Source: Paenibacillus chungangensis
GTDB lineage: Bacteria; Bacillota; Bacilli; Paenibacillales; Paenibacillaceae
Assembly: GCF_042675905.1 (NCBI RefSeq)
Contig: NZ_JBHTJZ010000011.1
Coordinates: forward strand, 54,636-118,635
Direction: 5' to 3'
Length of the DNA stretch: 64,000 bases
The position numbers were made by a program, and so were the translations under genes. Each line of letters starts with the position of its first letter. Position 1 is the stretch's first letter. Below, one piece after another: positions 58,082 through 64,000 of the stretch. Below the pieces are notes generated by a model. That model did not search any database, was not told where the DNA came from, and was given only the letters and a program-made list of their open reading frames with translations.

Positions 58082-59572
58082 TCAGGCAACGACTACATTC
58101 TCCGCCATATTCCCTTCTTGCACCTCATACACATGATCGGCGTTACGAATCGTTGACAAACGATGCGCAATAATGATCGTCGTCTTCCCTGCCCGGAGCT
58201 CATCCAGATTTCGCTGAATGACGCGCTCCGTCTCCAGATCAAGGGCAGATGTCGCTTCATCCAGCAGCAAAATTTCCGGCTCCCGAAGAAGCGCTCTTAC
58301 GATAGCCAGCCGTTGTCTCTGTCCCCCTGACAAAGTGACGCCCCGCTCCCCCAGAACGGTATCGTATCCATCCGGCAACGCCGCCACCGTATCATGAATA
58401 AGCATTTTCTGACAATAAGCGATCATCTCCTCTTCAGAGATGTCCTCATTGCCCATCATCAAGTTCATCCGTATCGTATCCGGGAAGAAATAAGGCTCCT
58501 GAGACACCAGCGCGACCTTGCGCAGCCAATCCTCCCGCTTCCACGCAGACAGCGGCTTCCCATTAACCAGAATCGCTCCTTGCTCCGGCTCATAGAATCG
58601 AACCAACAATGTAGATAAAGTGGACTTGCCTCCTCCGCTCGTTCCGATCACGGCCAGCTTCCGGCCAATAGGCAGATCTACAATGAGGCGGGTCATTTGC
58701 TGCATCGACACGAAGTATAGCAGTAGAAAGCCGATGAATTCTCCTGCCGTCAGCATATTCTTCTGGAGAAGCCAGCTGCCAATGACGAACAGCCCCAATG
58801 CGCCTGCGTAATAACTGAACATCCGCCCGCTTCCGCGCAAGTAAGAGAGGAAAAACGCCTTTACCACCTGAGCATTCCATGCGTCCACCTTATTCAGATA
58901 ACGCTTCAGATCCCACTTCTCCGCCGTGAATAAACGCAGTTCCCGAATCGCGGATACACTTTCATGCGCTTTCTGATTCGCTTCAATTCTGGCCCCGGCC
59001 AGCGCTTTGCCTGCAACCGCCGCCCTTCGTTCAATCGCGGGACCATACAAATAATATAGCGCGAAGAACGGAACGGCGACGAGCGTAAGCTGCCAGCTGG
59101 ATGACACCATGGCGCCCAGAGCGATCATCGAGAATAGGAGGCTGAAAATCATGGAAGGGAACAATTCCCGGTACAGCTTCTGAATCGACGCCACTTCGGT
59201 ATTGAGAAAAGCCAGCGTCTCTCCTACAGGATGCTGCTCATAGTAAGCAAAACCAAGTGTTCGAAGATGACGAAAAATGGACAACTGCATATCGCGGGAA
59301 GCCTTCTCTTGCACATGACGCTGAAGCCAGTTCCTAGCCATGGAAAGACTGATCAAAATCACAATCAGCAAAACGAGCAGGATGACTAACCACAGGAATG
59401 AGCTTCTGTCCTTCGCCGGCACAATGTCATCAATGAAATATTGAATCAGCTTCGGAATAACCAGTTCCACGCAAGCTGCAGCACCCATTACTGCTACCAA
59501 TCCCGATACAAGCAGCTTATAGGGCTGCAAGAACGAAATAATCCAACGATACACCGAATAAATAGATGTCAT
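58082..59572 (-). CDS. ABC exporter, fused transmembrane domain plus ATPase
   Basis: Walker A GTSGGGKST, signature LSGGQRQRLAIVRA, Walker B ILLLDEATSALD. Confidence 0.8.
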   Translation of the reverse strand: MTSIYSVYRWIISFLQPYKLLVSGLVAVMGAAACVELVIPKLIQYFIDDIVPAKDRSSFLWLVILLVLLIVILISLSMARNWLQRHVQEKASRDMQLSIFRHLRTLGFAYYEQHPVGETLAFLNTEVASIQKLYRELFPSMIFSLLFSMIALGAMVSSSWQLTLVAVPFFALYYLYGPAIERRAAVAGKALAGARIEANQKAHESVSAIRELRLFTAEKWDLKRYLNKVDAWNAQVVKAFFLSYLRGSGRMFSYYAGALGLFVIGSWLLQKNMLTAGEFIGFLLLYFVSMQQMTRLIVDLPIGRKLAVIGTSGGGKSTLSTLLVRFYEPEQGAILVNGKPLSAWKREDWLRKVALVSQEPYFFPDTIRMNLMMGNEDISEEEMIAYCQKMLIHDTVAALPDGYDTVLGERGVTLSGGQRQRLAIVRALLREPEILLLDEATSALDLETERVIQRNLDELRAGKTTIIIAHRLSTIRNADHVYEVQEGNMAENVVVA

Positions 59573-59721: not shown

Positions 59722-59767
59722 AAGCCGCCCTTCGATCATCGTTATGACGAAGATCAAAGGGCGGCTT
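59722..59767 (-). terminator. Strong hairpin downstream of the PKS operon (putative terminator, weak U-tract)
   Basis: 11-bp perfect stem aagccgccctt/aagggcggctt with a structured 24-nt loop. Confidence 0.4.
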
Positions 59768-59798: not shown

Positions 59799-61001
59799 CT
59801 AACCGGGACGCAGCCGGGTAGCTTCTACGAACTTGCATGCAAGCCGGGGACTTAGTCGGGCCAATCCCGGAAGGAGGCGTGAAGCGGCCGGATGGCGCAG
59901 CATTCCTTCAACGACCTTCCCCCACCTCAACGGGCCGCTGAATTGCGAATAGATCGCCTGGGTATAAGCGATGCGCCATTGTTCATACGTCCATTCTCCC
60001 GCCAGGTAGCGATGAGCATCTGCAGCGCATAACTGCGCCGAGCGCAACCCCATCGACATGCCATCCCCGCATAGCGGAGGAATGCGGCCGATGGCGTCTC
60101 CAATATGGGGAATGACGCTCCAAGGCACGGGATGCTTGCTAATATGGACCGGAGCGACAGCAGATTCTGTTCCATGTACAGGCTGGGCGTCGACCATTCG
60201 GCTATGCAGAGCGGGATTCCGGCTGACAGCTTCCATCAGCATCCCCTCCACAGTGGAATGGCTTCGGGGAATATCCTCGCTATCCAGCAGAGCCGCCATA
60301 TTGTAGTGTCCACACTCGATTCCGTTAATGCCCAGGTAGCCGCCCGGGAAGAAATACAGCTCCACCGCATCACTTGGAGAGCTCGCGCCGGCGCTCCATG
60401 CGAAATGCGACTTCACCCCGATCGCACCGCGTTCATGCGCCGATCCTGAGCGCCGCTTGCGCCAGCTACCGTCATCGACGCGATGGTCATGTCTCCCAAG
60501 GATACGCCCTTGTCCGCCAGCGCCCCAGGCAGCCACTACGGCACGGGCTGTGATCTCCGTCGACTCTCGTCCTTGTCTGACATGAAGGATATAGCCGTGC
60601 TCATAGGGCACGACGGCCGTGACGGTCCCCCCTTGCAGAAGGAATGCCCCTTCCGCAACGGCATGTCGATGCAGCGCCGCATCCAATCTATAGCGGCTAA
60701 CCCCGAGAGCGGTCCCGGGAAGCGGCAGCTCAACCTGTCCGCCACCGGCCAAGTATAACGCAATTCGGGAGATGCGATGAGGCTCAAGTGACTGCACCGT
60801 CTCCCTAAGTCCCATAGCCGATAATATATGCTGCGACTCCGGCGACAGAAATTCGCCGCACACCTTATGCTTCGGGAAGCGCTGCCTGTCCATTAACGCC
60901 GTTACCCAGCCGCGTGCCGCCAGCATCGCCGCCAGACTGCTGCCTGCCACGCCTGCGCCAAGCACCGCAGCGTCATAATCCGTCCGCATAGCCTCCACCA
61001 T
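59799..61001 (-). CDS. FAD-dependent oxidoreductase (geranylgeranyl-reductase/flavin hydroxylase-like), SrsC-like
   Basis: YDAAVLGAGVAGSSLAAMLAARGW GxGxxG fold. 400 aa. Start overlaps the methyltransferase gene end. Confidence 0.7.
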   Translation of the reverse strand: MVEAMRTDYDAAVLGAGVAGSSLAAMLAARGWVTALMDRQRFPKHKVCGEFLSPESQHILSAMGLRETVQSLEPHRISRIALYLAGGGQVELPLPGTALGVSRYRLDAALHRHAVAEGAFLLQGGTVTAVVPYEHGYILHVRQGRESTEITARAVVAAWGAGGQGRILGRHDHRVDDGSWRKRRSGSAHERGAIGVKSHFAWSAGASSPSDAVELYFFPGGYLGINGIECGHYNMAALLDSEDIPRSHSTVEGMLMEAVSRNPALHSRMVDAQPVHGTESAVAPVHISKHPVPWSVIPHIGDAIGRIPPLCGDGMSMGLRSAQLCAADAHRYLAGEWTYEQWRIAYTQAIYSQFSGPLRWGKVVEGMLRHPAASRLLPGLARLSPRLACKFVEATRLRPG

Positions 61002-61710
61002 CCTTCCGAATCATGACCGCATAACGGAATAGGGGGCGCCAGCGATAGAGGAGCTCACCGCTCCCAGCCGCTGCTTCGAGCGAGCGCCAGTCTGACGGGC
61101 GGAATCCCTTGGCCACCGACAATGGGCCGTCATGCCGAATGTAACGGTTGCGCGACACCAGCCGCGCGGCCAGCCATACAGCGATCCAAGCCAGCCAATG
61201 GCGGTGTATATCGTTAATAACCACGCCGTAACGCGATGCCCGCACCATGCTGCCGACCACCTCATGAAGCCGTTCGCCCTGGAAGTGATGAAGGAACTGC
61301 GTACCCGTTACAATATCGGCACAGCCGCTAGGAAGCTTCAGCACATCGTCCCTCCTTACTTCCACACGAGGCTCGTCTCTGTAATACAGAGCGGCTTCCT
61401 CGCAGGCCTCTTCCGTTACATCCAATAGCGTAATTCTCATTCGCACCCCATGCTTGGCGCTCCAGTCCAGCAATCGCCGATTCACATCACCCGATCCGGC
61501 GCCTACATCCAGTATGGACAGCTCCTCCGGACAGCCGGCTTGCCGCCATAGCCGGTTCACGCCATACAGCGTAGGCGCAGATGCGGCGAACAGCTTGTTC
61601 AATCTGCGGAGATGGACATGCGCCTCCCGCAGCTCCTCCCCTCCACTCGCGAGATCGTCCATCAGCTCATCAGCCTCCGCTCGATGGCGAAGCCATGGCC
61701 CCTCAAGCAT
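60973..61710 (-). CDS. Class I SAM-dependent methyltransferase, SrsB-like
   Basis: ILDVGAGSGDVNRRL SAM-binding motif. Probable start MLEGPWLRH next to the PKS stop. Confidence 0.7.
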   Translation of the reverse strand: MLEGPWLRHRAEADELMDDLASGGEELREAHVHLRRLNKLFAASAPTLYGVNRLWRQAGCPEELSILDVGAGSGDVNRRLLDWSAKHGVRMRITLLDVTEEACEEAALYYRDEPRVEVRRDDVLKLPSGCADIVTGTQFLHHFQGERLHEVVGSMVRASRYGVVINDIHRHWLAWIAVWLAARLVSRNRYIRHDGPLSVAKGFRPSDWRSLEAAAGSGELLYRWRPLFRYAVMIRKDGGGYADGL

Positions 61711-62920
61711 AGCTGCCCTCCCGGCAATCGGCGGAGGCTGCAGCATTGGTCTGGGTGGAAGCCGGTACATAAGCAATCTCCAACAGCTCGGCCGTAATGC
61801 CTGGCCCGAATGCGAGCGCCAGGCCGCTTCGTTGCCGCAGCGCGTCGTGCGAACGAAGCTGCCGTCTCAGCTCGGCAAGCACGAACAGGATTGTGGCCGA
61901 GGACATATTGCCGTAATGACGCAGAATAGAGCGACTGGCGGAGGTCTGCTCATCACTCAGTTGGAAGACGTCCTGTAGATTGTCCACAATCCCCTTTCCT
62001 CCCGGGTGAATCGCCCACAGCTCGGGAAGGCCCCCCTCTTCAGCTTGCGCCCCAATCAGCCGCTCCACTTCATCTGGAATAACGCGCCCGATCAGCCCCG
62101 GGATGGAGGGAGACAAGTAGAGATCGAAGCCGCGATCGCCTACCTCCCACACCATCTCGTCTCGGCAATCCGGCAGCAGCACGGTATGCTCCTTGCCCAG
62201 CAGGAAGCAATCCCTGCTCTCTGCTTCCGCTTCGCCTACTACGCATGAGGAGGCGCCATCGCCGAAGAAGGAAGCGCCGTACAGCTCTTCCTTGCCGCCC
62301 GAAGGCTGGATATGAAGCGTGCACAATTCCACACAGACGATTAAGGCATGTGCGTCCGGACGCCCTTCCACGAGTTGTCTGGCCACGCACACTGCCTTCA
62401 GCCCCGCTGCGCAGCCAAGGAACGTCAACGGAATCCTCATTACATTCGTACTTAGCCCCAGCTCCCAGACGAGCGACGCATCAAGACCGGGCAGGAACTG
62501 TCCCGTGCAGCTGACTGTAATCAGATGCGTAATATCGCCAGGCGTCAGTCCGCTGTCCTGCAGAGCGGCACGCGCAGCTTCCACGCCAAGCGGCACAGAA
62601 GCCTCCTTGTATAGCGACATCCGCTCCGCTGTCGTCGGAGCGGCTCCTTGCGAGTCCTTGCCGGGGAAGAAGCGACAGCTCTCTGCCGGCTCCAGCAGAT
62701 TCGGCTCGCAAGTATAACGCGTCTGAACCCCGCATTGCTTGAATATGCGCTTCGCCCAACGCGCGGAATGTTGCTCTCCGGCGCGAGACAAGGCTTCCGT
62801 CAATCTGGCGGAAGTATCCTCCTGATCCATCCTTGCGGACGGCACAGCGGTGCCGATCCCTTTTATAGCCGATCTCTTTATTCGTCCGTCCGTTAGCTCC
62901 CTCACTTTCATATCCAGCAT
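61703..62920 (-). CDS. Type III polyketide synthase (chalcone/stilbene-synthase family)
   Basis: Active-site Cys in IPLTFLGCAAGLKAV. AIHPGGKGIVD near the C-terminus. 405 aa. Confidence 0.85.
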   Translation of the reverse strand: MLDMKVRELTDGRIKRSAIKGIGTAVPSARMDQEDTSARLTEALSRAGEQHSARWAKRIFKQCGVQTRYTCEPNLLEPAESCRFFPGKDSQGAAPTTAERMSLYKEASVPLGVEAARAALQDSGLTPGDITHLITVSCTGQFLPGLDASLVWELGLSTNVMRIPLTFLGCAAGLKAVCVARQLVEGRPDAHALIVCVELCTLHIQPSGGKEELYGASFFGDGASSCVVGEAEAESRDCFLLGKEHTVLLPDCRDEMVWEVGDRGFDLYLSPSIPGLIGRVIPDEVERLIGAQAEEGGLPELWAIHPGGKGIVDNLQDVFQLSDEQTSASRSILRHYGNMSSATILFVLAELRRQLRSHDALRQRSGLALAFGPGITAELLEIAYVPASTQTNAAASADCREGSYA

Positions 62921-62928
62921 CCCTCTTT

Positions 62929-62996
62929 CTGCGAATAGTCATCTCGCGCAAGGCAAGGTCGAGACAAGCCTCTTGCTACCAACAGTCTATTCGCAG
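62929..62996 (-). promoter_or_regulatory. Inverted repeat/stem-loop in the 5' leader of the PKS operon
   Basis: ctgcgaatagtc (62929..62940) pairs with gtctattcgcag (62985..62996), with a nested gcaag/cttgc hairpin. On the minus strand it lies immediately 5' of SD AAAGAGGGA. Confidence 0.25.
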
Positions 62997-63076
62997 GAAG
63001 CTGGAATTATGAGCGCTGGCTACAACAGAAAGCCGTTCTGCCTCGCTATCGCGACAATGACAGAGCGGCTTCTTCA

Positions 63077-63769
63077 TTACATATCCACGTCATCCACCTT
63101 GCGGAAGGACAGATAAGTTAGCAATATGCCCAGTATGCCCAGTGACAACGGTACCGCGATAATGTGGCTCAGGCTGAAGCCGTTGCTGTTGGACACGACA
63201 ATCGCGACGATTAAAATGGACGAAACAACGGTTGTGGCTACCGATTTGGAGCGCATGCCGAAGGCGAGCGGCATCAAGCTCATTCCCGCGGCTCCGAACG
63301 ATTGCATCAGCACGTTCAGCCCCTGCTTCTGCAGCAGCTCCGTCGTCACCGCATCGTCGACATAACCGACATATGTGTTCACGGCGACAACCAGCGCTCC
63401 CAGCACCACATTGAGAATAATGAGATTCACGAACGTCCAGCTGAACACCATCGCCAGCTTGGCGAATATGATTTTCTTGCGGCTAATGGGATAAGCGAAC
63501 ATCAACGTCATCGTCTTGTCCCGAAATTCAGAGATAATCAGCTTGGACAGCATGACGGAAGCGTATACGATGAATGTTGCTCGTCCTATCGTATCGATCA
63601 GACTGAACATGTCCCCATAACCGGTGAAGACTGGCTCATCCTCGCTGGGCGCCTCCACAAAGTACATTAAGAAGAAGAAAGCTGCAATAGACGCATAAGC
63701 GATGAGCGATCCCCACACGTAACTGATCATCTTGCCTTTCTTAAGCTCCAGCTTGATGAGATGCAGCAT
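63077..63769 (-). CDS. ABC-2-type transporter permease
   Basis: 230 aa. 6 hydrophobic segments. Typical ABC-2 fold without an ATPase domain. Confidence 0.65.
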   Translation of the reverse strand: MLHLIKLELKKGKMISYVWGSLIAYASIAAFFFLMYFVEAPSEDEPVFTGYGDMFSLIDTIGRATFIVYASVMLSKLIISEFRDKTMTLMFAYPISRKKIIFAKLAMVFSWTFVNLIILNVVLGALVVAVNTYVGYVDDAVTTELLQKQGLNVLMQSFGAAGMSLMPLAFGMRSKSVATTVVSSILIVAIVVSNSNGFSLSHIIAVPLSLGILGILLTYLSFRKVDDVDM

Positions 63770-64000
63770 GCTGATCGCCCCCTTTAATCAGAGAGATGAA
63801 GTATTCTTCCAAGGTGTGGGCCTTCCGATCGATGGAAGTAATCGGTACATCATTCATGATGAGCGCCTTGGACAGTTCCTCTTGTGTCCCCTTCCAGTCA
63901 TAAATGCGCAGCATACGCTCACCCATCACCTTGAAGTTGCGGATGTCGAGCGTCTCCTCCAATACATATGCAGCCTTCCGCACGTCCGGCGTCGTCAGCT
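63741..64000 (-). CDS. ABC transporter ATP-binding protein, C-terminal part (partial; continues beyond the window end)
   Basis: C-terminal ABC-ATPase-like tail ...HTLEEYFISL. Overlaps the permease start by 29 nt. Confidence 0.55.
   Translation of the reverse strand, partial: LTTPDVRKAAYVLEETLDIRNFKVMGERMLRIYDWKGTQEELSKALIMNDVPITSIDRKAHTLEEYFISLIKGGDQHAASHQAGA

What the first reader, a model, noticed from the sequence alone, without database searches (positions are those of the whole stretch)
59799..63983. srsABC-like phenolic-lipid operon (type III PKS, methyltransferase, flavoprotein) preceded by an ABC-2 exporter
The gene order PKS, SAM methyltransferase, FAD oxidoreductase with overlapping stop and start codons mirrors the Streptomyces griseus srsABC operon (alkylresorcinol to methylated alkylquinones). 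It is also related to Bacillus bpsAB. An upstream ABC-2 ATPase and permease suggest dedicated export. In a Paenibacillus-like host this would predict membrane alkylresorcinol or alkylquinone production, which may be linked to antibiotic tolerance.
Basis: partly seen in the sequence, partly recalled or inferred. Interest (0 to 1): 0.55.

Follow-up and report, generated by a model that had tools for sequence, protein, structure and literature searches.

The report
Paenibacillus phenolic-lipid operon, hierridin type
This is a real but fairly ordinary three-gene operon (type III polyketide synthase, methyltransferase, flavoprotein) for making membrane phenolic lipids. It is shared by most Paenibacillus species, it resembles the cyanobacterial and planctomycete hierridin/alkylresorcinol operon more than Streptomyces srsABC, and the neighbouring ABC-2 transporter is not part of it.

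Summary
On the minus strand lie a type III PKS (61703..62911), a SAM methyltransferase (60973..61710) and a flavoprotein (59799..60989/61001). The coding sequences overlap by 8 nt and by 17 or 29 nt. The host is Paenibacillus-like (91% identity to Paenibacillus sp. J5C2022).

- **Conservation:** the trio keeps this order in 38 of 39 related Paenibacillaceae loci.
- **Methyltransferase:** it is a class I enzyme (PRK06202-like). It is not the membrane ICMT type found in srsB- and bpsB-type operons.
- **Closest relatives:** all three proteins are homologous to a planctomycete methyltransferase–oxidoreductase–PKS operon of the hidABC kind.
- **PKS:** the Cys-His-Asn triad and the Trp at the position linked to resorcinol formation are invariant in 121 homologues.
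- **ABC-2 pair:** it belongs to a separate response regulator–kinase–ATPase–permease module and ends in a hairpin.
- **Promoter:** a conserved promoter-like motif (35 of 40 loci) lies between that hairpin and the PKS gene. It resembles sporulation mother-cell promoters.
- **Transporter:** 30 of 39 relatives carry an MMPL transporter as a fourth gene. It is missing here.

Verdict: a new, uncharacterised member of a known kind, of modest interest.

The parts
62984..63012 (-). Conserved promoter-like bipartite motif TCATAAT-N13-GAATAGACT (family consensus TCATATT-N13-GAATA[G/C/T]AT). It resembles sporulation mother-cell sigma-E-type promoters.
   Evidence: Found 60-135 nt upstream of the PKS alignment start in 35 of 40 loci, allowing up to 3 mismatches in 14 positions. 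Background is 0.06 per 250 nt. At 2 or fewer mismatches, 24 of 33 hits in about 0.7 Mb of sequence (both strands scanned) lie upstream of the PKS genes. The sigma assignment is an inference from PMC3789822, PMC517825 and memory.
62959..62970 (-). Conserved downstream box GGCTTGTCTCGA (family pattern C[A/T]TGTC[C/T]). It may be an operator; its reverse complement, GGACAWG, is SpoIIID-like.
   Evidence: Present within 45 nt after the -10 element in 21 of 35 loci, against 0.013 expected per 45 nt. The SpoIIID assignment rests on memory of the consensus and is not tested.
61703..62911 (-). Type III polyketide synthase, 402 aa (an alternative ATG lies at 62920). Catalytic Cys167, His302 and Asn335, plus Trp255 at the ArsB-W281 / Pks11-W230 / CHS-G256 position.
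   Evidence: Pfam and NCBIfam matches. PDB matches to PKS18, Steely1, ARAS2 and Pks11. The four residues are invariant in 121 homologues. Tree.
60973..61710 (-). Class I SAM-dependent methyltransferase, 245 aa, PRK06202-like (HidA-type, not ICMT/SrsB-type). Its start overlaps the PKS stop by 8 nt.
   Evidence: Homologues sit next to type III PKS genes in Falsirhodobacter (34.8%, E 2e-23), Deinococcus and Paludisphaera. No similarity to the Streptomyces ICMT.
59799..61001 (-). FAD-dependent oxidoreductase of the geranylgeranyl-reductase superfamily (HidB-type). The probable start is 60989. It overlaps the methyltransferase gene by 17 or 29 nt.
   Evidence: It is 32% identical over its full length (E 2e-26) to the Paludisphaera operon flavoprotein. 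The halogenase-like PDB hits lack the WxWxIP motif.
59722..59767 (-). Intrinsic-terminator-like hairpin ending the operon, 32 nt after the flavoprotein stop codon.
   Evidence: A stem of 20 base pairs with a 4-nt loop and one internal mismatch. The 101-nt stretch folds at -38.4 kcal/mol with a z-score of -5.4, and 0 of 200 shuffles fold as well.
63029..63071 (-). Hairpin followed by a U-rich tract at the end of the ABC-2 permease gene. It marks the upstream boundary that separates the transporter operon from the PKS operon.
   Evidence: -27 kcal/mol, z-score -1.9. The stem is kept in L001 through a compensatory T-A to C-G change (sequences).

Best explanation
This is a self-contained three-gene operon for a membrane phenolic lipid.

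**Pathway (inferred)**
1. The type III PKS takes a long-chain fatty acyl thioester and adds three malonyl units.
2. It most likely closes the ring by aldol condensation, giving a 5-alkylresorcinol or an alkylresorcylic acid.
3. The class I SAM methyltransferase methylates the ring. Whether it acts on oxygen or carbon is unknown.
4. The geranylgeranyl-reductase-like flavoprotein most likely hydroxylates the ring, giving a methoxy-hydroquinone or hierridin-like phenol.

**Transcription**
The three genes are transcribed from their own conserved promoter and end at a strong terminator. The promoter resembles a sporulation mother-cell (sigma-E-type) promoter.

**Relationships**
By descent the operon belongs with the hidABC/planctomycete alkylresorcinol operons, in the hidC>hidA>hidB order. 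It matches srsABC only in chemical logic. The upstream ABC-2 transporter belongs to a separate two-component/ABC module. The transporter usual for this family, an MMPL protein encoded as a fourth gene, has been lost in this lineage.

**Shown versus inferred**
- Shown: gene content, overlaps, homologies, conserved synteny, conserved motifs.
- Inferred: substrate, product, order of tailoring steps, sigma factor.
For: - **Gene anatomy and overlaps:**
- **Conserved order:** the trio is in the same order in 38 of 39 Paenibacillaceae loci.
- **Active site:** Cys167, His302, Asn335 and Trp255 are invariant in 121 homologues. Trp255 aligns with Pks11 W230 and CHS G256. This is the position reported to decide resorcinol against pyrone in ArsB/ArsC and to be conserved in SrsA, FtpA, PKS10 and PKS11 (PMC5916927; PMC9927152).
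- **Closest solved relatives:** long-chain acyl enzymes PKS18 and Pks11, plus Steely1 and ARAS2.
- **Homology to the planctomycete methyltransferase–flavoprotein–PKS operon L041:**
  - flavoprotein 32% over full length, E 2e-26;
  - methyltransferase 28.9%, E 3e-7;
  - PKS 36%;
  - both methyltransferases match PRK06202 and both flavoproteins match TIGR02032.
- **Tree:** the PKS groups with Paludisphaera and Deinococcus at 84% bootstrap, apart from the srsA-like enzyme and Pks11.
- **Published function of relatives:** planctomycete operon PKSs make pentadecyl- and heptadecyl-resorcinols (PMC10896814). HidA methylates 5-pentadecylresorcinol, and HidB is proposed to hydroxylate the ring (PMC6836626). 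The hidC>hidA>hidB order is known (PMC8086630).
- **Own promoter and terminator:**
- **ABC-2 belongs to a separate module:**
- **MMPL fourth gene:** present in 30 of 39 loci and absent here.
Against: - No product was measured.
- The Trp is not a perfect predictor. DquA has it yet makes only pyrones (PMC9827899), and a DpgA-like enzyme also aligns with Trp there.
- Hid proteins themselves were not available. The planctomycete operon was used as a proxy; its proteins are reported 48-55% identical to their Hid counterparts.
- The tree is small, NJ only, and uses partial PDB sequences plus a CHS sequence recalled from memory.
- The role of the flavoprotein is unresolved even in the planctomycete study.
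- The window methyltransferase scores below the PRK06202 cut-off (139 against 243 bits).
- The -10 half of the promoter motif mostly starts with A rather than the canonical C of mother-cell promoters. No known sigma-E-dependent gene was available as a positive control.
Confidence: 0.72

Rival explanations
1. One reading: a true srsABC orthologue that makes methylated alkylquinones, which the upstream ABC-2 transporter exports as a dedicated pump.
For: - The functional order is the same (PKS, methyltransferase, flavoprotein) with overlapping genes.
- The srs-type flavoprotein and the window flavoprotein both fall in the TIGR02032 superfamily.
- The three loci with the ABC-2 module nearby (window, L001, L002) all lack the MMPL gene.
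Against: - The methyltransferases are not homologous: ICMT against class I (PMC6669644).
- The flavoproteins are only 27% identical over 94 aa.
- The PKS groups away from the srsA-like enzyme and Pks11.
- The ABC-2 pair is part of a regulator–kinase–ATPase–permease unit that is conserved as a unit in L002, 3.5 kb from the PKS.
- A hairpin and the conserved promoter-like motif separate it from the PKS.
- Window, L001, L002 and L009 form one clade, so the MMPL loss and the ABC-2 proximity count as a single evolutionary event.
Confidence: 0.08
2. Same operon, but the PKS closes the ring by lactonisation. It would then make alkylpyrones, as BpsA and DquA do, and the methyltransferase would methylate the pyrone hydroxyl.
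For: - DquA carries the same Trp yet yields only pyrones (PMC9827899).
- BpsA gives mainly triketide pyrones (PMC5686519).
- The top PDB hit, PKS18, is a pyrone synthase in vitro.
Against: - Trp255 is invariant, whereas PKS18 has Leu at this position.
- The closest operon-level relatives that have been tested make alkylresorcinols (PMC10896814).
- A ring hydroxylase fits a resorcinol substrate better.
Confidence: 0.17
3. The flavoprotein is not a hydroxylase. It could be a reductase, as in geranylgeranyl reductases or MenJ, acting on an unsaturated alkyl chain. It could also be a halogenase.
For: - The best NCBIfam matches are the geranylgeranyl-reductase superfamily and MenJ.
- The best PDB sequence hits are flavin-dependent halogenases PltA and ChlB4.
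- The enzyme that chlorinates hierridin C is unknown (PMC6836626).
Against: - The halogenase WxWxIP motif is absent. PltA's TWVWQIP aligns with GYLGINGIE.
- The same superfamily contains the monooxygenase QhpG and the srsC-like monooxygenase.
- Hydroxylation is the role assigned to SrsC and proposed for HidB.
Confidence: 0.1

Closest known systems
hidABC (hierridin biosynthesis, Cyanobium sp. LEGE 06113) and the homologous planctomycete methyltransferase–oxidoreductase–type III PKS alkylresorcinol operon
   Same: - All three proteins are homologous to the operon on the Paludisphaera borealis plasmid: PKS 36%, methyltransferase 29%, flavoprotein 32% over full length, E 2e-26.
- The family assignments agree: PRK06202 methyltransferase and TIGR02032 flavoprotein.
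- The PKS groups with it in the tree.
- The three genes are tightly coupled.
- A hidC>hidA>hidB order is known in cyanobacteria.
   Different: - Identity is low, about 30-37%.
- The host is a Gram-positive endospore former.
- Most relatives add an MMPL transporter gene.
- The promoter looks sporulation-type.
- The product is unknown.
- Hid proteins themselves were not compared directly.
srsABC of Streptomyces griseus, and pkqABC of Mycobacterium smegmatis (assumed here to be of the same type)
   Same: - The order is the same: PKS, methyltransferase, flavoprotein.
- The chemical logic is the same: alkylresorcinol, then methylation, then hydroxylation to a quinone.
- The PKS is about 34% identical to a Streptomyces srsA-like enzyme and shares the Trp.
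- The flavoproteins share the geranylgeranyl-reductase superfamily.
   Different: - SrsB-type methyltransferases are small ICMT-family membrane proteins and are not homologous to the window enzyme.
- The flavoproteins are only marginally similar.
- The PKS lies in a different branch.
- The ICMT nature of PkqB rests on memory and on indirect statements.
bpsAB of Bacillus subtilis (and dquAB of Sporomusaceae)
   Same: - A type III PKS that uses long-chain acyl starters in an endospore-forming Firmicute.
- bpsA is upregulated during sporulation, which fits the sporulation-type promoter seen here.
   Different: - It is a two-gene operon with no flavoprotein.
- Its methyltransferase is ICMT-like.
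- Its products are mainly pyrones.
Deinococcus radiodurans megaplasmid operon: type III PKS, PRK06202 methyltransferase and monooxygenase (uncharacterised)
   Same: - The order and gene overlaps are the same.
- The PKS is 38-41% identical, the closest outside the Paenibacillaceae family.
- The methyltransferase is in the same family.
   Different: - The flavoprotein is a UbiH/PHBH-type hydroxylase, not the geranylgeranyl-reductase type.
- A glycosyltransferase follows the operon.

Membership tests
Type III polyketide synthase (chalcone synthase superfamily) | N- and C-terminal chalcone/stilbene synthase domains | tested here: met
   PF00195 at 99.5 bits and PF02797 at 88.7 bits, both above the 27-bit cut-off.
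Type III polyketide synthase (chalcone synthase superfamily) | Cys-His-Asn catalytic triad | tested here: met
   Cys167, His302 and Asn335 align with CHS C164, H303 and N336. They are invariant in 121 homologues.
Bacterial alkylresorcinol-forming type III PKS (ArsB, SrsA, PKS11, HidC kind) | Trp at the ArsB-281 position (Gly in the pyrone-forming ArsC) | tested here: met
   Trp255 aligns with Pks11 W230 and is invariant. The rule comes from PMC5916927 and PMC9927152. It is imperfect, as DquA shows.
Bacterial alkylresorcinol-forming type III PKS (ArsB, SrsA, PKS11, HidC kind) | Long-chain acyl starter and a resorcinol product | not testable with these tools
   This needs expression and LC-MS. 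The only support is indirect: the closest solved relatives use long-chain acyl starters.
srsABC / pkqABC operon | ICMT-family membrane methyltransferase (SrsB) | tested here: not met
   The window methyltransferase matches class I families only. It has no similarity to the ICMT of the Streptomyces srs-type operon L043. SrsB is taken to be ICMT-like from PMC6669644.
srsABC / pkqABC operon | SrsC-type flavoprotein hydroxylase | tested here: inconclusive
   Both are in the TIGR02032 superfamily, but pairwise similarity is only 27% over 94 aa, E 6e-4. S. griseus SrsC itself was not available.
srsABC / pkqABC operon | Order PKS, methyltransferase, flavoprotein in one operon | tested here: met
   Overlaps of 8 nt and of 17 or 29 nt, one promoter-like motif and one terminator.
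hidABC / planctomycete alkylresorcinol operon | Class I SAM methyltransferase homologous to HidA | tested here: met
   Tested by proxy. The window enzyme is 28.9% identical (E 3e-7) to the Paludisphaera operon methyltransferase, and both match PRK06202. Planctomycete proteins are reported 48-55% identical to Hid proteins.
hidABC / planctomycete alkylresorcinol operon | FAD oxidoreductase homologous to HidB | tested here: met
   Tested by proxy. 32% identity over 389 aligned residues, E 2e-26, to the Paludisphaera flavoprotein.
hidABC / planctomycete alkylresorcinol operon | PKS in the HidC branch | tested here: inconclusive
   It groups with the Paludisphaera and Deinococcus enzymes at 84% bootstrap, but the NJ tree is small and contains no HidC sequence.
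bpsAB operon | Two-gene operon of a PKS and an ICMT-like methyltransferase | tested here: not met
   There are three genes and the methyltransferase is class I. BpsB is ICMT-like according to PMC9827899.
ABC-2 transporter as part of the biosynthetic cluster | Conserved linkage with, and co-transcription with, the PKS operon | tested here: not met
   Adjacent in 1 of 39 loci and 3.5 kb away in one more. It forms a separate regulator–kinase–ATPase–permease unit. A hairpin and a promoter-like motif lie between it and the PKS.
DpgA (3,5-dihydroxyphenylacetyl-CoA synthase) | Score above the NCBIfam equivalog cut-off | tested here: not met
   140 bits against a 425-bit cut-off. No Dpg partner genes are nearby.

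The most novel reading that the evidence does not exclude
The Paenibacillus phenolic-lipid operon may be a sporulation gene set. It would be switched on in the mother cell by sigma-E and tuned by SpoIIID through the conserved downstream box. Its alkylresorcinol-derived lipid would normally be handed to the developing spore envelope by a dedicated MMPL transporter. This would be an endospore counterpart of Azotobacter cyst lipids and of Streptomyces spore polyketide quinones. The window's lineage would be a natural variant that has lost the MMPL gene.
Probability: 0.3. Interest if true: 0.55.

Novelty: new member of a known kind. Interest (0 to 1): 0.3.

Why it matters
Phenolic lipids made by type III PKSs change membrane behaviour in dormant or stressed cells. 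Known examples are Azotobacter cysts, beta-lactam tolerance in Streptomyces, and alternative respiratory quinones in mycobacteria and Streptomyces spores.

This work adds four points:
- Nearly all sampled Paenibacillus species carry one well-defined operon of this kind, and no study of its product was found in the library searched here.
- The operon is related to the cyanobacterial and planctomycete hierridin-type system, not to the actinobacterial srs type. Predictions about its methyltransferase chemistry should therefore follow HidA, not SrsB.
- The operon carries a conserved regulatory region that suggests a testable link to sporulation.
- It corrects the assumption that a neighbouring transporter is part of the cluster. 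It points instead to MMPL as the transporter usually encoded with the operon.

Tried and rejected
**Sequences and papers that could not be obtained**
1. A direct comparison with S. griseus SrsA, SrsB and SrsC was not possible.
   - The sequences are in none of the collections I could still reach.
   - The single genome-contig scan returned only Paenibacillaceae.
   - The Funabashi and Nakano papers are not held.
   - I used instead a Streptomyces plasmid operon with the same PKS–ICMT–monooxygenase architecture (L043).
2. No paper that spells out the sigma-E consensus could be found. That comparison rests partly on memory.

**Ideas tested and rejected**
3. The flavoprotein is a halogenase. The top PDB hits suggested this, but the WxWxIP motif is absent.
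4. The operon was recently acquired by horizontal transfer, which would explain 60% GC against a window mean of 51.5%.
   - The trio is about 5% richer in GC than its flanks in 37 of 39 species, and it tracks each host's GC.
   - GC3 is not deviant.
5. The PKS is a DpgA-type enzyme. It scores far below the cut-off.
6. The ABC-2 pair replaced MMPL. The co-occurrence reduces to one clade and therefore one event.

**Checks that gave nothing useful**
7. The generic sigma-70 promoter and terminator scan found nothing above chance in the region and missed both hairpins.
8. A search for other genes carrying the promoter motif, as a sigma-E positive control, found no recognisable sporulation genes among the few extra hits.

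Full report
**What is there**

All genes in the flagged region lie on the minus strand. In transcription order they are:
- the 3' end of an ABC ATPase, which runs off the window end;
- an ABC-2 permease (63077..63769; PF12730);
- a 156-nt spacer;
- a type III PKS (61703..62911);
- a methyltransferase (60973..61710);
- a flavoprotein (59799..60989 or 61001);
- a strong hairpin;
- after a further spacer, an ABC exporter gene (58082..59572).

The PKS most likely starts at ATG 62911, not 62920. AGAGGG lies 9 nt upstream of it, and the 91%-identical NCBI homologue is also 402 aa. The methyltransferase ATG overlaps the PKS stop codon (ATGCTTGA) and follows GGGAGG. The flavoprotein start overlaps the methyltransferase by 17 nt (ATG 60989, the start conserved in L001) or by 29 nt.

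**The enzymes**

*PKS*
- It carries both chalcone/stilbene synthase domains.
- It has the Cys167-His302-Asn335 triad. Numbering was fixed against alfalfa CHS2, recalled from memory; that sequence reproduces all canonical CHS positions.
- Its best solved relatives are the long-chain enzymes PKS18 and Pks11, plus Steely1 and rice ARAS2. Plant chalcone synthases score lower.
- Trp255 occupies the position of Pks11 W230 and CHS G256. The literature reports that Trp here (ArsB W281, against Gly in ArsC) directs resorcinol rather than pyrone formation, and that it is conserved in SrsA, FtpA, PKS10 and PKS11 (PMC5916927; PMC9927152).
- The triad and Trp255 are invariant in 121 homologues.
- The rule has an exception: DquA has the Trp but makes pyrones (PMC9827899).

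*Methyltransferase*
- It is a soluble class I SAM enzyme (Methyltransf_25/11/12).
- It resembles NCBIfam PRK06202 at 139 bits, below the 243-bit cut-off.

*Flavoprotein*
- It belongs to the geranylgeranyl-reductase superfamily (TIGR02032, 89 bits), with weaker matches to MenJ and to the monooxygenase QhpG.
- Its best PDB sequence hits are flavin halogenases, but the WxWxIP motif is missing.

**Conservation**

A scan of one genome per species returned 39 loci. Nearly all are Paenibacillus, with two Cohnella, one Neobacillus and two metagenome-assembled genomes.
- The three genes are present in the same order in 38 of 39 loci; L023 lacks the flavoprotein.
- In 30 of 39 loci a fourth gene follows on the same strand, encoding a protein of about 715 aa of the MMPL family (PF03176, 260 bits). 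It lies directly after the flavoprotein gene in 29 of these; in L028 a ketosynthase gene intervenes.
- That gene is absent from the whole 64-kb window and from nine loci, including the closest relative L001.
- Eleven loci have an FAD-oxidase/Rieske gene just upstream.
- The operon's raised GC (60% against 51.5%) is not a sign of recent transfer. The trio is richer in GC than its flanks in 37 of 39 species, it follows each host's GC, and its GC3 is ordinary.

**Which known system is it?**

- A cluster sharing 51-63% identity with the S. griseus srs operon is annotated as PKS, isoprenylcysteine carboxyl methyltransferase and monooxygenase (PMC6669644).
- A Streptomyces plasmid carries exactly that architecture (L043). 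Its methyltransferase matches ICMT (PF04140, 96 bits) and shows no similarity to the window enzyme.
- BpsB of B. subtilis is also ICMT-like (PMC9827899).
- The srs-type flavoprotein is in the same superfamily as the window protein, but the two align only weakly: 27% over 94 aa.

The planctomycete Paludisphaera borealis, by contrast, carries a methyltransferase–oxidoreductase–PKS operon (L041) in which all three proteins are homologous to the window's:
- flavoprotein 32% identical over its full length, E 2e-26;
- methyltransferase 28.9%, E 3e-7, also PRK06202-like;
- PKS 36%.

This is the operon type studied in Planctomycetota. There the PKSs made pentadecyl- and heptadecyl-resorcinols, and the proteins are 48-55% identical to cyanobacterial HidA, HidB and HidC (PMC10896814). 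For hierridin biosynthesis, HidC makes the alkylresorcinol, HidA methylates it (shown with recombinant enzyme), and HidB is proposed to hydroxylate the ring (PMC6836626). A hidC>hidA>hidB order exists in cyanobacteria (PMC8086630).

A small NJ tree places the Paenibacillaceae PKSs with the Paludisphaera and Deinococcus enzymes (84% bootstrap). They sit apart from the srsA-like enzyme and Pks11, and apart from plant CHS. Deinococcus has the same PKS–methyltransferase–flavoprotein order and a PRK06202 methyltransferase, but a UbiH-type flavoprotein.

In short, the window's operon works like srsABC but descends with the hid type.

**The ABC-2 transporter**

Several results argue against a dedicated exporter.
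- In L001 the ATPase and permease follow an OmpR-type response regulator and a histidine kinase.
- The same four-gene unit occurs in L002 (74%, 53%, 70% and 60% identity). There it is 3.5 kb from the PKS, with two unrelated genes in between.
- No other locus has the unit within 8 kb.
- In the window the permease gene is followed by a hairpin and a U-rich tract (63071..63029; -27 kcal/mol). L001 keeps the stem through a compensatory change.
- The three MMPL-less loci that have the module nearby fall in one clade together with L009, so they count as one evolutionary event.

**Regulation**

Upstream genes differ among species, yet 35 of 40 upstream regions contain the motif TCATATT-N13-GAATA(G/C/T)AT.
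- It allows up to 3 mismatches in 14 positions. Background is 0.06 per 250 nt, so about 2.5 hits would be expected.
- At 2 or fewer mismatches, with a fixed spacer and a downstream ORF, 24 of the 33 hits in about 0.7 Mb of sequence (both strands scanned) are the PKS genes.
- The window copy is at 63012..62984, downstream of the ABC-2 hairpin and about 70 nt before the PKS start.
- A second box, C(A/T)TGTC(C/T), follows within 45 nt in 21 of 35 loci, against 0.013 expected per 45 nt. The window copy is at 62970..62959.

The -35 half contains the ATA that is typical of sigma-E promoters, and the -10 half resembles the CATA-type -10 of mother-cell sigma factors (PMC3789822; layout in PMC517825). 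Most copies, however, begin AATA rather than CATA. The reverse complement of the second box, GGACAWG, resembles the SpoIIID site as I recall it. These assignments are inferences. They fit the reported rise of bpsA transcription during B. subtilis sporulation (PMC5686519) and the induction of the Streptomyces operon in spores (PMC9927152).

After the flavoprotein gene, a stem of 20 base pairs closes the operon (59767..59722; the 101-nt stretch folds at -38.4 kcal/mol, z-score -5.4).

**Verdict**

This is a genuine, intact and conserved phenolic-lipid operon. It is an uncharacterised member of a known kind. I found no paper that characterises the Paenibacillus version; genome papers list it only as 'T3PKS'. 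The class of product is right. The srsABC orthology, the bpsAB relation and the ABC-2 export role are not. Interest is modest. The most interesting open point is the possible sporulation control together with the missing MMPL partner.

Noticed in passing
window 58082..59572 (-): The ABC exporter gene downstream of the operon (transmembrane domain fused to an ATPase domain, 496 aa) lacks about 60 residues between the end of TM6 and the Walker A motif when compared with Sav1866, MsbA and P-glycoprotein. Query residue 300 aligns with Sav1866 residue 364. This looks like an in-frame deletion that probably inactivates the protein. The gene is absent from the closest relative L001.
   Followed up: partly
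L001 11404..13218, compared with window 58082..59572: The stretch between the flavoprotein gene and the glyoxalase-family gene differs between the window and its 91%-identical relative. L001 has a GH30/GH59-like glycosyl hydrolase where the window has the truncated ABC exporter. This is the same place where 30 other species carry the MMPL gene, so it appears to be a hotspot for gene replacement.
   Followed up: partly
L003 11082..13226, and the equivalent position in 29 other loci: An MMPL-family transporter of about 715 aa (PF03176) is the conserved fourth gene of the operon in most Paenibacillaceae. It is the likely dedicated lipid transporter of the family. It is missing in the window.
   Followed up: yes
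L028 11169..12416: In Paenibacillus eucommiae an extra FabF-like beta-ketoacyl synthase gene sits between the flavoprotein and MMPL genes. It could supply or modify the acyl starter.
   Followed up: no
L003 6016..7809, and 10 other loci: A fused FAD-dependent oxidase (DAO) and Rieske 2Fe-2S protein is encoded directly upstream of the PKS, on the same strand, in 11 of 39 loci. In L017 no promoter motif lies between it and the PKS. It may be an extra tailoring enzyme in that subgroup.
   Followed up: no
L034 8001..9123; L037 1785..2758; L007 9859..10988: The PKS (L034, L037) or the flavoprotein (L007) matches are split into two pieces or two frames in these genomes. This suggests frameshifts: either pseudogenes or sequencing errors.
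   Followed up: no
protein P0064: A PKS 60% identical to the window's is labelled as coming from a 'Candidatus Udaeobacter' (Verrucomicrobiota) metagenome-assembled genome. This could be a binning error or horizontal transfer.
   Followed up: no
window 63077..64000 (-); L001 4482..7840: The ABC-2 ATPase and permease form a four-gene unit with an OmpR-type response regulator and a histidine kinase. This arrangement is typical of peptide-antibiotic sensing and detoxification modules in Firmicutes. What it acts on is unknown.
   Followed up: partly
window 59799..62911, and the same genes in 37 of 39 loci: The three genes are on average 5.4 percentage points richer in GC than their flanks in almost every species, whatever the host GC (44-69%). 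GC3 is not unusual, so this probably reflects amino-acid composition.
   Followed up: yes
L043 2803..7984 (Streptomyces sp. NBC_00184 plasmid): An srs-type operon (PKS, ICMT methyltransferase, monooxygenase) lies next to a UbiA prenyltransferase gene and two further methyltransferase genes. This resembles the Actinoplanes agq prenylated alkylhydroquinone cluster.
   Followed up: no
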